A stretch of DNA of 64,000 nt from Octopus vulgaris (lineage: Eukaryota), in the NCBI GenBank assembly GCA_951406725.2, contig OX597831.1, forward strand, positions 55,924,001 through 55,988,000, in the 5' to 3' direction. Below the pieces are notes generated by a model that ran no database searches, was not told the origin of the DNA, and saw only the letters and a program-made list of their open reading frames with translations. Positions within the stretch are counted from its first letter, which is position 1, and the number at the start of each line of letters is the position of its first letter. The position numbers and the translations under genes were made by a program. This document shows positions 10,894-63,572 of the stretch, one piece after another.

Positions 10894-11239
10894 ACACACA
10901 AGATTGGCTTCTTTTAGTTTCTCTCTGAATCTTCTGACCAGGCTTTGGTCGCACCGGGACAATAATTGAAGAAACTTAGCAAAGGTCCGCCAGTGAGAAT
11001 GAACCCAAGACCACATGGTTGGGAAACAAGTTACTTAACAACACATCCATGACTGCACCTCTGTGCGTGCGCGCGTGCGCGTGTTTATGAAGGCGCGTGA
11101 CCTAGTGGCTAGAGTGTTGCACTCAATTTCTAGATCGTGGGTTTGATTCCAGGACGAGCAGCGCATCGCATTTTGGAACAAAATACTTCATTTCCGACAT
11201 ACATAAGCAGTCCTGCCAACCTGCTGCAGTGTTTAAAAC

Positions 11240-11390
11240 TTGATAGCTTGTAATAGAAATAGGATATCCAATCTCTTTCCTTCTAAAGAAATTTTTCACT
11301 GTGCAGCCTCCTACTATACCAATGTCCTAGCTAACAGTGGTTTCAAAGATAAGATATATTACAGCCCTTCTAGTAATTATACGAATCATA
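11240..11390 (+). pseudogene. Penelope-like element RT thumb fragment
   Basis: NRISNLFPSKEIFHCAASYYTNVLANSGFKDKIYY resembles the RLS..SSNE.IF..A..YY..AL..SG pattern of the PLE family also seen at 31.7-32.9 kb. Confidence 0.6.
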
Positions 11391-14195: not shown

Positions 14196-14625
14196 AGAAG
14201 AAATGAAACTCGTCAATAAGACATTTTAACAGAAAATGATGGATATGTATAGTTATTTACTGAACGCTATTAATATTGTTTGAAAAAACGTTATATGATA
14301 TAACATCAGAAGTAGCCTATAGAAAGAGGAGGGATATATTTTTAGTGAATGTTAAATATATATGTATATATATGTATATATGTATATATATATATGTATA
14401 TATATGTATATATATATATATATATATAGCAATAATAATTCTCTAAATGAGATATAGACAGTAACTGCTCCATAACATAAGGGACTAAAGCCATCTGAAT
14501 ATGGCTAGGGACAGGGCAGGGTGGTGTTACTGTTGCATTTAGCCCCAGGCGAACATCAACGTCGCCAGATAGGCTTGACACCATCACGGCGTCCTCTATC
14601 CTGCAAAGGGAGATAATTCCCCGAT

Positions 14626-14698
14626 GAAGCGGAAACCACACACGGACCTAGGTTTCAAGGTGTTTGCCTATTATCAACGTATGGTAGGCACCCGCTTC
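14626..14698 (-). ncRNA. Type I hammerhead, U3-A8 variant, extended stem I
   Basis: Reverse complement of 15182-15254. Confidence 0.82.
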
Positions 14699-15181
14699 CT
14701 CGATGAATCACTCACTCTGCAGGATATTTATATAGATTTTCAAGCAAAATACATTTGCTGATTTCGAAAATCTGTTCGACAGCAATAATAATTCTCTAAA
14801 TGAGATATAGACAGTAACTGCTCCATAACATAAGGGACTAAAGCCATCTGAATATGGCTAGGGACAGGGCAGGGTGGTGGGGGTGTTACCGCTTCATCGG
14901 GGAATTATCTCCCTTTGCAGGATAGAGGACGCCGTGATGGTGTCAAGCCTATCTGGCGACGTTGATGTTCGCCTGGGGCTAAACACAACAGTAACACCCC
15001 CACCACCCTGCCCTGTCCCTAGCCATATTCAGATGGCTTTAGTCCCTTATGTTATGGAGCAGTTACTGTCTATATCTCATTTAGAGAATTATTATTGCTG
15101 TCGAACAGATTTTCGAAATCAGCAAATGTATTTTGCTTGAAAATCTATATAAATATCCTGCAGAGTTAGTGGTTCGTCGAG

Positions 15182-15254
15182 GAAGCGGGTGCCTACCATA
15201 CGTTGATAATAGGCAAACACCTTGAAACCTAGGTCCGTGTGTGGTTTCCGCTTC
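15182..15254 (+). ncRNA. Type I hammerhead, U3-A8 variant, extended stem I
   Basis: GAAGCGG..CATACG-TTGATAA-tAGG caaaca CCTt-GAA-ACCTAGGT-C-CGTGTG..CCGCTTC. Predicted cleavage after 15235 (GUC). Confidence 0.82.
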
Positions 15255-15409
15255 ATCGGGGAATTATCTCTCTTTGCAGGATAGAGGACGCCGTGATGGT
15301 GTCAAGCCTATCTGGCGACGTTGATGTTCGCCTGGGGCTAAATGCAACAGTAACACCACCCTGCCCTGTCCCTAGCCATATTCAGATGGCTTTAGTCCCT
15401 TATGCAGTC

Positions 15410-31669: not shown

Positions 31670-32850
31670 AGGGTCATATAGAAGGTAATATTTCGGCATC
31701 GTTCTAAAACTTTCCTCAAATCTTTAAATGACTACATGGCCAAAATTAAGCAATCGCCTAATCTACATATCTTCGCCGACTAAATAAAGAAGATTTATGA
31801 AACATGCATCTCCACATACGCAAGGCTTCTCACAAACATAAATCACCAAGACACACAAGAAAACTTGCAACTCCACATTCAATGATAAATTCAGACGCGA
31901 AGGAGCTAGCTATCCGCCTTAACATAGAAGGTCGTGTAGACCGCCTTACCACGCGACCTCCGCACATTACACTTAAGGACCACATGCCTAAATTCCTCTA
32001 CAACCCTAAATGCAGGCTGATCAACCCCTCTAAAAGTGATATAGGTATTGTTAGAAAGCGCATTCTTGATACCTGTTTCTTTATTACCCACAAGGGGCTA
32101 AACATAGAGGGAACAAACAAGGACAGACATAGGTATTAAGTCGATTACATCGACCCCAGTGCGTAACTGGTACTTAATTTATCGACCCCGAAAGGATGCA
32201 AAGGCAAAGTCGACCTCGGCGGAATTTGAACTCACAACGTAACGGCAGACGAAATACGGCTATCATTTCGCCCGGCGTGCTAACGTTTCTGCCAGCTCGC
32301 CGCATTCTTGATACCATCAACTCTGACATTAGAAGGGCCTCAGGGTTGATTCAATGGGATTCCAGCGCAGCCCTGATCGACTGGTTTCACAGTATCGAGA
32401 ATAAATCAGCCTGCAGTTTAATGCGTTTGACATCGTAGACTTTTACCCTTCTGTATCGAAAACCCTCCTCTTGAAGGCTCTAAATCTTTCTAAGTAATTC
32501 ATTAGCACGAGTGATCTCGATGTCAGAATCATCACGAACGTCAGAAAGTCAATCTTGGTTCAGGTCGATACACTGTCTGAGTGAAGGAAGCAGTCGATTT
32601 ACTGTTCGACGTTTCTATGAGGTGCTACGACGGGACTGAGATCGCCGAACTCGTCGGGTTATTCATCTTGGATACTCTCTAGAAATGCACGCATCCACAT
32701 TGGTTGGCCCTCTATAGGGACGATGGCCTGGCAAATACAAAGCCATATGAGCTGTCACGCCATGAACAAGTTCAGGAAGGACGTGATAAAAATATTCAAG
32801 GAATTCGGCCTGTCTATAACAGTTACCATCAATCTGACCACGGTCGACCT
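31670..32850 (+). pseudogene. Penelope-like element reverse transcriptase fossil (probably Naiad-type)
   Basis: ITLKDH..KF..NPKCRLINPSKSDIG..KRILDTIN, QW..ALIDWF, FDIVDFYPSV, FDVSMRCYDGTEIAELVGLFIL, LYRDDGLA, KIFKEFGLSIT. Stops and frameshifts present. Confidence 0.85.
32074..32303 (-). mobile_element. SINE family B inserted in the PLE RT, with TSD
   Basis: CGCATTCTTGATACC at 32059-32073 and 32301-32315. Confidence 0.92.
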
Positions 32851-33324
32851 CTTGCACATAAGATGTTATATTCATATGATGCTATCAACGTTCTCAGTAA
32901 TACAAGTGTTACAACTCTCATGCGATCGCCAATCGTCGTTCCGACTGTAAGTAACTGTTGCAATGCCCTGTTGACTACTGTTTTAACCGATTTCCTGTGT
33001 AGCATTGACTTCAAATCCCTTCGATGTTCTGCCTCTCACTGGTCTCAATAGATATTTCTCATAAGTGTGTCCATAGTATCTGACCGTATGACCAATGCTT
33101 TGCTTTTGAATTTGTGTATGAGGTGTGTGAGTATGTATGCGTACATGAGTGTGTATATGAGTGTGTACGTATGTGTAAGAGTGTGCATGCATACATGTGA
33201 TTGTGTGTGTGTGTGTGTGTGGTTAATAAATACAAATAGACTGTCGAGTTGTACAGACTTACATACAGCGATAACTATTTGAATGAGTGGAACACACGAA
33301 AGCCAATGACTCTATATTGGTAAT

Positions 33325-62431: not shown

Positions 62432-63572
62432 ATTTAGATTGCTTGAGGTTAGCTGAGGTATGTGTAGTGGAGACAAAATAGCTTTAGATAATTTTTCTTT
62501 AAGATTTTATTATACTTATGCTCGAATGAGAAATGCTTAAGTAGGTGTTTCAAAATTATTTTTGCTACCACAGTGACTTGTAGAATGTATAATGATGGTA
62601 CTATATAATAGGTCGCTTTCTGTGTGTGGTTGAAAGTAAGTAGTTTTCGATGTACTGTGCTTTATCTAAAAACCACTTTCATTGAGAGTATCGAGGCATC
62701 AATATTAAAACAACGGTTAAGGCGGATAGCTGGCATAATCGTGAAGACGGTCGAAATGCTTAGCGGCATTTCGTCCATCTCCACGTTCTAGGTTCAAATT
62801 CCGCTGCGGTCGACTTTGTCTTTCATCCTTTCGGAGCTCGATAAAATAAGTACCAGTTGAGTACTGGGTTGATGTAATTGACTTACCCCTGAAATTGCTG
62901 GCCTTGTACCAAAATTTGAAATCAATATTAGATGAATGGTCGGAAAGCCGTCACGTGATGTTTATCACTATAGTATTGATGATAATAGAAATATTAAAAT
63001 TACTAAGTCTCTCTAAAAGAGATTACGGCAGCGTTACTGGAAGTTAATTGTTATCGCCATATTAATATGGCAGTCTTATAGATATAAGACTAAAAGCTGT
63101 CGCTGATTAGCTCCATGAGGCCATCGCCTTAAGATAGCTATTTGACACACAAACTGTGTCCATTATAACCTTCGAACAAGGGAGGTCAGCCGCTTCACAC
63201 TGCCAGTCAGACAGCTACAGACGCGTTTCAGGGTATTTGCCCTTTGTCAATGTAGCGTCTCTGTTCGAAGGTATTGATAATAATTTGCAGGTAATTGGAG
63301 TTTATGCATGTAATGGGGAATTACGTAAAGTTTTTTTCTATAAGATGATTGCTGAAAGTTAAGCTGAATGTGACATCTAAAATATTTGCATCGTTGTTGT
63401 TCGATTCTACCATAATACGATATGCTAAATCCCTAAAAGATTCATAGAGATTTTCAGTGTATGTCTCTGTGTGTGAATTTGGAATATAAAGATTTGGAAT
63501 ACATGAACCGGGGTTATCACTAACTCCATTAGAATCTTTCGATTCCATACTTACATCAAGGAGTACATTCGA
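62050..63572 (-). pseudogene. Highly decayed Penelope-like element (RT to linker) with nested insertions
   Basis: LLDVSMESKDSNGVSD, FRDLAYRIMVESN..NILDVTFSL and RKRPII*Y..KHFSFEHKYNKIF mirror PLE RT and linker motifs. SINE B is inserted at 62720-62925. Confidence 0.65.
63168..63272 (-). ncRNA. Type I hammerhead, U3-A8 variant, extended stem I
   Basis: Minus strand ACCTTCGAACA.AGAC-GCTACA-TTGACAA-AGGG caaata CCCT-GAA-ACGCGT-C-TGTAGC.GTCT...TGTTCGAAGGT. Confidence 0.82.

What the first reader, a model, noticed from the sequence alone, without database searches (positions are those of the whole stretch)
63168..63272. U3-A8 compensatory core and a shared CAAAYA loop link two otherwise dissimilar hammerheads
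Seen: cores UUGACAA here and UUGAUAA at 15203 both replace C3 and G8 together. Both have stem II AGG(G)-CAAAYA-(C)CCU, a palindromic stem III (ACGCGU, ACCUAGGU), a GUC site and a long bulged stem I (11-bp outer helix here). Established: positions 3 and 8 form a Watson-Crick pair in the active fold and U3-A8 is a tolerated natural variant. Inference: a selected subfamily with a loop II to stem I tertiary contact, invisible to CUGANGA-only searches. This copy sits inside an older PLE fossil.
Basis: partly seen in the sequence, partly recalled or inferred. Interest (0 to 1): 0.72.

Follow-up and report, generated by a model that had tools for sequence, protein, structure and literature searches.

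The report
Retrozyme hammerheads swapping their core pair
Both sites are copies of one large family of roughly 360-base mobile repeats that each carry a hammerhead-shaped, likely self-cutting RNA of a known design; the U3-A8 core and the CAAAUA loop are already described, but in this genome the core pair has changed repeatedly and even mismatched versions have been copied hundreds of times.

Summary
The motif is real, on the minus strand (core U3 at 63250, predicted cut after 63220); the second is at 15203(+), with an inverted twin at 14677(-). U3-A8 is family consensus, not decay. Both belong to one superfamily of ~360-bp non-coding repeats: tandem and inverted arrays ending at (TA)n, over 5,500 motif matches, monomers 54% identical outside the ribozyme. 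This fits known non-LTR retrozymes, likely moved by a Penelope-like element; an intact Hydra-type element shows the same insertion ends but no sequence homology. U3-A8 is published (including UUGAUAA in Schistosoma), and CAAAUA is the Schistosoma loop 2. The 'selected subfamily' is not supported: U3-A8 is not one clade, loop II varies, and C3-G8 relatives are abundant. The flagged copy has a 31-32-nt deletion that removes the UAC loop-1 strand, so it likely lacks the tertiary contact. The less ordinary result: subfamilies with U3·G8 (244 exact matches), C3·A8 (26) and U4C (144) cores have amplified, while the other core bases and stem III palindromes stay conserved. Cleavage and expression were not tested.

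The parts
62981..63270 (-). Single, internally deleted copy of the ~364-bp family A retrozyme-like monomer
   Evidence: Matches family copies at 94-100% over 62982-63258; tandem period 364-365 in L009, L024; bounded by the 8-bp duplication
63214..63256 (-). Type I hammerhead: stem I 6 bp, core UUGACAA (U3 at 63250, A8 at 63245), stem II 4 bp with loop CAAAUA (63234-63239), GAA, palindromic stem III ACGCGU, C17 at 63220
63257..63261 (-). Deletion junction: 31-32 nt present in intact copies are missing here, including the UAC strand of internal loop 1
   Evidence: alignment of family copies; folds of intact L011 and window copy
63168..63272 (-). Extended stem I rod closed by the 11-bp outer helix (63168-63178 with 63262-63272), which is family-wide
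62973..62980 (+). Likely target-site duplication, left copy (GTATTGAT)
63271..63278 (+). Likely target-site duplication, right copy (GTATTGAT; its first 2 nt also fit the element end)
63360..63470 (-). Piece of the decayed PLE reverse transcriptase into which the copy inserted
   Evidence: tblastn with the L132 PLE ORF, E 0.008, 27%
62479..62703 (-). Collinear downstream piece of the same PLE fossil
   Evidence: tblastn E 0.011, 24%
14885..15404 (+). Family B array arm (~359-bp monomer) with hammerhead core UUGAUAA at 15203, C17 at 15235, ending at (TA)n
14428..14880 (-). Inverted family B arm with a second identical hammerhead (U3 at 14677), ending at the long terminus against (TA)n

Best explanation
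These are type I hammerhead motifs inside a superfamily of ~360-bp non-coding tandem and inverted repeats, likely non-LTR retrozymes whose multimeric transcripts would be cut to unit length by hammerheads predicted to work as dimers, and which are likely copied into (TA)n sites by a Penelope-like element acting in trans. Shown: the motif, family consensus, copy numbers, homology of families A and B, array architecture, two fixed ends at (TA)n, and palindromic stem III in many sequence versions. Inferred: transcription, self-cleavage after GUC, dimer pairing through stem III, the loop II-internal loop 1 contact, circularisation, and the identity of the helper element. U3-A8 is one of several tolerated core states that arose more than once. 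The flagged copy is a solo deletion derivative, likely weak or inactive.
For: Monomers of 353-365 bp in head-to-tail arrays with a hammerhead in each unit, GC 41-50%, circular folds more stable than shuffles (z -4.9 to -7.8 for 8 of 8 family A/B monomers; 12 shuffles each). Architecture matches the canonical animal type I design: helix I 6 bp, helix II 4 bp, short palindromic helix III (PMC4209133), and loop CAAAUA is the Schistosoma loop 2 (PMC2632901). Stem III is a perfect palindrome in 176 of 213 copies, 191 with G·U, in at least eight different frequent sequences. In copies picked by a motif outside the core, G5, A6, A9, G12, A13, A14, A15.1, U16.1 and C17 show only single-copy changes (A-lineage 24 of 30 loci usable; B-lineage 17 of 30 after I dropped 4 spurious rows). 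Arrays end at two fixed points against (TA)n, the signature described for PLEs (PMC8557442) and seen in an intact PLE family here (150 of 150 scored matches 98-100% identical; ends) that has the Hydra-clade RWK and DKT motifs.
Against: No cleavage or expression data. Rfam models did not hit. No homology between monomers and the pLTR of the one autonomous PLE family tested; the only hits were neighbouring retrozyme copies. [quoted passage not shown] Two C3·A8 monomers fold little better than shuffles (z -1.9 and -0.1).
Confidence: 0.7

Rival explanations
1. Cleavage is dispensable or nearly so: the repeats are copied by the PLE machinery from uncut transcripts (or cut in trans by other copies), and the core drifts at 3, 4 and 8.
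For: Young, dispersed subfamilies with U3·G8 (244 exact matches), C3·A8 (26 of 63; tandem trimer L102) and U4C (144). Some PLE clades proliferate without hammerheads (PMC8557442).
Against: The other core positions, stem pairing and stem III palindromy are kept across lineages only 54-57% identical. Watson-Crick states outnumber mismatches (6597 vs 1282 matches for the 14-nt geometry; copies are not independent).
Confidence: 0.17
2. One reading: a single selected U3-A8 subfamily defined by a CAAAYA loop and strict compensation.
For: With CAAAYA fixed in the pattern, U3-A8 outnumbers C3-G8 1195 to 137.
Against: That ratio is an artefact of fixing the loop: loop-free counts are 2635 vs 3962. One U3-A8 clade is rejected (p-AU 1.7e-61). 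Loop II takes many forms.
Confidence: 0.04
3. The repeats are pLTR remnants (5'-truncated ends) of an autonomous PLE that itself carries this hammerhead, not an independent non-autonomous lineage.
For: PLE-type ends and inversions; animal retrozymes are reported to derive from pLTRs (10.64898/2026.07.22.740005, abstract).
Against: Arrays are head-to-tail monomers; the only PLE ORF among ORFs of 150 aa or more that I recognised in loci L001-L131 (part of the listing was cut) lies on the opposite strand and has its own CUGAUGA minimal hammerhead. Only one PLE family was examined.
Confidence: 0.08
4. Independent decay of CUGANGA cores at two loci.
For: C-to-U and G-to-A are common mutations; many scattered C3·A8 matches look like such decay.
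Against: Both cores are the near-fixed consensus of families with 96-100% identical copies.
Confidence: 0.01

Closest known systems
Non-LTR retrozymes of animals (coral, mussel, axolotl; Cervera and de la Pena 2020, PMC7229834)
   Same: 150-450-bp tandem units with a canonical type I hammerhead, GC under 50%, self-paired circular fold, larger target duplication; mussel and axolotl units are 330-390 bp; one axolotl motif also has a U·U at the base of helix II.
   Different: Here U3-A8 is a major state and U3·G8, C3·A8 and U4C subfamilies are amplified; arrays show inverted arms and two fixed ends at (TA)n. The words octopus, cephalopod, inverted and microsatellite do not occur in that main text (its supplement could not be read).
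Schistosoma mansoni Sm-alpha hammerhead (full-length crystal structure)
   Same: Loop 2 CAAAUA, internal loop 1 with a 5' U and a UAC strand (PMC2632901).
   Different: C3-G8 core (recalled; Perreault cites C3-G8 as the consensus pair); internal loop 1 here is shorter on the 3' strand, and absent as such in the flagged copy.
U3-A8 minimal hammerheads of S. mansoni Cercyon PLEs (Cervera and de la Pena 2014, PMC4209133) and natural U3-A8 variants of Perreault 2011 (PMC3088659)
   Same: Same core covariation, about 1,300 hits in S. mansoni; supplement lists UUGAUAA and UUGAAAA cores.
   Different: Those are minimal motifs in PLE ends, mostly single; these are canonical, loop-loop type motifs in short tandem monomers.
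Hydra-clade Penelope-like elements (Craig et al. 2021, PMC8557442)
   Same: (TA)n targeting, inverted 5' arm and terminal extension; an intact family with RWK and DKT motifs is abundant in this genome.
   Different: The repeats encode no protein and share no detected sequence with that family's ends.

Membership tests
Type I hammerhead ribozyme | Conserved core (3-8 pair, U4 G5 A6, A9, G12 A13 A14, A15.1-U16.1, H17) with three helices | tested here: met
   3-8 is U-A, a published natural variant
Type I hammerhead ribozyme | Loop 1-loop 2 contact nucleotides, intact family copies | tested here: met
   U after stem I 202 of 213, UAC/UGC 177 of 213, loop II ends in A in 14 of the 15 commonest loops; sequence only
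Type I hammerhead ribozyme | Loop 1-loop 2 contact nucleotides, the flagged copy | tested here: not met
   UAC strand deleted; predicted single-U bulge
Type I hammerhead ribozyme | Match to an Rfam hammerhead model | tested here: not met
   none listed (150 of 193 rows shown)
Type I hammerhead ribozyme | Self-cleavage | not testable with these tools
   needs in vitro assay
Non-LTR retrozyme | 150-450-bp head-to-tail repeats, each with a type I hammerhead | tested here: met
   periods 353-365 bp; the flagged copy itself is a solo unit
Non-LTR retrozyme | Non-coding, GC under 50%, highly self-paired circular fold | tested here: met
   (GC 0.41-0.46 and z -4.9 to -7.8 for families A and B)
Non-LTR retrozyme | Target-site duplication longer than 4 bp when present | tested here: met
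   8-bp repeat flanks the window copy; one copy only
Non-LTR retrozyme | Abundant linear and circular unit-length RNA | not tested
   no RNA data were examined
Non-LTR retrozyme | Absence of PBS and PPT | not tested
   not searched
Non-autonomous PLE derivative | PLE insertion signature (tandem plus inverted arms, terminal extension, microsatellite target) | tested here: met
Non-autonomous PLE derivative | Sequence homology to the pLTR of an autonomous PLE | tested here: inconclusive
   none with the one family tested; other PLE families not examined
Autonomous PLE | RT plus GIY-YIG ORF within the element | tested here: not met
   monomers of ~360 bp follow one another directly

The most novel reading that the evidence does not exclude
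One retrozyme superfamily records the hammerhead's C3-G8/U3-A8 pair switching back and forth several times through mismatched intermediates (U3·G8, C3·A8) that kept replicating, for example U3-A8 (L125/L193) to C3·A8 (L102) to C3-G8 (L163) among units 87-94% identical. This would be a natural, copy-number-scored walk across a ribozyme fitness valley, made passable by tertiary and dimer stabilisation or by complementation between unlike units, in RNAs moved by a Hydra-clade PLE that recognises structure and not pLTR sequence.
Probability: 0.3. Interest if true: 0.7.

Novelty: new variant of a known kind. Interest (0 to 1): 0.42.

Why it matters
The flagged features are known, so the finding as written is ordinary apart from scale: descriptors fixed on CUGANGA miss thousands of motifs in this genome. 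What matters more is the superfamily. It offers natural, recently amplified hammerheads with four states of the 3-8 pair and a U4C state in near-identical backgrounds, which makes two open questions testable: how much cleavage a retrozyme needs in order to spread, and whether compensatory changes in a catalytic core pass through replicating intermediates. The shared insertion ends with an intact Hydra-type PLE also name a candidate helper enzyme.

Tried and rejected
Rfam scans gave only microsatellite-driven or chance matches. My first counts fixed the loop as CAAAYA and suggested U3-A8 dominance; I rejected that reading after loop-free patterns. Purine-3/pyrimidine-8 swaps gave 22 matches against 9 in the control, with no repeated family. 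The first tree mixed in truncated flanks and was replaced by a core-to-3'-end tree. Pfam found nothing in the fossil pieces or the intact PLE ORF and the PDB search gave only chance hits; PLE identity rests on motifs, architecture and Atlas look-alikes (HTH_animal on 25-38% of members of the top clusters, GIY-YIG further down). No pLTR homology with the tested PLE. Earlier-findings look-ups returned nothing. Paper searches for kinetic data on C3U/G8A or UUGANGA cores found nothing relevant; two primary papers were not held. Scripts stopped with errors after printing the results cited.

Full report
Observation. The motif lies on the minus strand: stem I GCUACA/UGUAGC, core UUGACAA with U3 at 63250, stem II AGGG-CAAAUA-CCCU, GAA, stem III ACGCGU and C17 at 63220. 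The second motif is at 15203(+), and an identical inverted twin at 14677(-). These were the only 3 hits of a window scan that left positions 3 and 8 free. The window is on contig C18 of a 2.8-Gb, 227-contig genome; I read it as an octopus-like genome from its size and from a recalled SINE, which no call confirmed. Rfam listed no hammerhead.

Both motifs are family consensus. DNA searches gave 48 matches (40 of 2033 candidates scored) for the flagged copy and 45 (40 of 772) for the second, the full-length ones 94-100% identical. In those loci 35 of 36 distinct family A contexts read UUGACAA and 31 of 32 family B contexts UUGAUAA (these loci were selected by similarity to the query). A pattern with positions 7-8 free gave 151 exact family A matches, A8 in all 100 listed. 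Independent decay is excluded.

What the elements are. Copies stand as head-to-tail monomers of 364-365 bp (A) and 359-360 bp (B), often with an inverted arm. Circular folds are more stable than shuffles for all 8 A/B monomers (z -4.9 to -7.8, 12 shuffles each). Outside the hammerhead, an A and a B monomer align at 146 of 270 columns, score above all 500 shuffles (z 6.0), so the two are homologous. Two motifs outside the core give 2437 and 3128 exact matches (controls 2 and 0), a lower bound for the superfamily. Arrays end at two fixed points against (TA)n, about 48 nt apart in B and about 60 in A. An intact PLE family shows the same pair of ends; 150 of 150 scored matches are 98-100% identical, many in a 727-aa open frame. 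Its ORF has the RWK and DKT motifs given for the (TA)n-targeting Hydra clade (PMC8557442 passages). Its own hammerhead is a minimal CUGAUGA motif, and it shares no detected sequence with the monomers. Mobilisation in trans is therefore inferred, not shown.

The flagged copy. It is a solo unit bounded by an 8-bp repeat (62973-62980, 63271-63278), inside collinear remains of a PLE RT. Intact copies carry 31-32 more nucleotides between the outer helix and stem I; these form a long rod and supply the UAC strand of internal loop 1. In the window copy that strand is gone and only a U bulge is predicted. The 11-bp outer helix is family-wide, but the proposed loop II contact is likely weakened in exactly this copy.

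Is there a U3-A8/CAAAYA subfamily? With the loop fixed, counts were U3-A8 1195, U3·G8 214, C3-G8 137, C3·A8 63. With the loop free (14 nt between A9 and G12, GUC site) they were C3-G8 3962, U3-A8 2635, U3·G8 855, C3·A8 427, with controls 36, 129, 72, 41; these totals include motifs outside the superfamily. A further 1424 U3-A8 matches have a 5-nt CAAUA loop and the same ACGCGU stem III as the flagged copy. Among 213 distinct fetched copies, loop II was CAAAUA in 96 and CAAACA in 38, the rest other loops (the sample was chosen by me, not random). A tree of 66 representatives of 169 copies (core to 3' end, positions 3 and 8 masked, clustered at 96% within each core state; copies lacking an intact 3' end left out) needs 11 changes of 3/8 state, and single clades of U3-A8, C3-G8 or U3·G8 are each rejected (p-AU 1.7e-61, 1.8e-05, 6.7e-04). 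Recombination between subfamilies was not tested and could inflate this; the root is only a midpoint, so directions are tentative.

Mismatched cores have amplified. One subfamily has 244 exact matches, G8 in 99 of the 100 listed, and all 29 on contig C1 appear with U3. Family B itself nests among U3·G8 units about 90% identical to it. A C3·A8 subfamily has 26 matches (counted), including a tandem trimer, and lies between U3-A8 units (91-93%) and a C3-G8 unit (94%). A U4C subfamily has 144 matches. Against simple drift: in copies picked without regard to the core, the A-lineage (24 of 30 loci usable, 5 from one array) had 21 U-A, 1 C·A, 1 U·G, 1 A·A; the B-lineage (21 rows, of which I dropped 4 truncated copies fitted by chance, leaving 17) had 7 C-G, 6 U-A, 4 U·G; the other core positions changed only in single copies, except U4C in 4. 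Stem III stays palindromic through many sequences (176 of 213 perfect), as expected for dimeric hammerheads.

Comparison with the literature. U3-A8 was reported in nature by Perreault 2011 (PMC3088659, passages; also U10.1·U11.1 and U4C) and in about 1,300 S. mansoni PLE motifs (PMC4209133, parts 1-2 of 4 and one supplementary file, which lists UUGAUAA and UUGAAAA). CAAAUA is the Schistosoma loop 2 (PMC2632901, passages). The overall design is that of non-LTR retrozymes (PMC7229834, parts 2-3 of 6 and passages; supplement unreadable), recently argued to derive from PLEs (10.64898/2026.07.22.740005, part 1 of 5 and passages). Against activity: a pairwise mutagenesis of one type III hammerhead found only the G-C swap rescued this pair (PMC9901934, passages). 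I found no octopus retrozyme or amplified U3·G8 family in searches, but the library lacks most subscription papers, two relevant primary papers were not held, and unread supplements may bear on this.

Verdict. The repeated switching of the 3-8 pair through amplified mismatch states, and the PLE-type ends, are the parts worth following. Cleavage and expression remain untested.

Noticed in passing
L132:5165-7402(+) and L132:3403-5124(-); L133-L162: Young, intact Hydra-type PLE family (727-aa frame, at least 150 copies 98-100% identical) with a minimal CUGAUGA hammerhead near its end and two fixed termini about 73 nt apart at (TA)n; Pfam gives no hit.
   Followed up: partly
window 31876-32860 (+) and 11237-11362 (+): Further decayed pieces of the same PLE type in the window (tblastn E 5e-18 to 2e-04).
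   Followed up: no
window 62716-62930: An older dispersed repeat (73-83% identical copies in many loci; recalled as a cephalopod SINE) lies between the retrozyme copy and the downstream PLE fossil piece.
   Followed up: no
window 15143-15153 (+) and equivalents in B-lineage monomers: A TATA-like TATATAAATA stretch about 50-60 nt upstream of the core is kept in B-lineage monomers and could be part of an internal promoter.
   Followed up: no
L200:1007-5155 (-): Four U3·G8 hammerheads spaced 1378-1388 bp apart, a larger tandem unit that contains a retrozyme copy.
   Followed up: no
G000:C1:8133940-8135463 (L237-L241): Five-unit array of the CAAUA-loop U3-A8 subfamily, the largest seen (1424 exact matches).
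   Followed up: partly
G000:C1:7024382 and similar: Another, more diverged group of C3-G8 motifs with stem II GGUC/UAAUAA-like loops; relation to the superfamily not established.
   Followed up: no
L003 (G000:C15:67926443-67926565): A second family A copy with a similar short junction that lacks the UAC strand.
   Followed up: no
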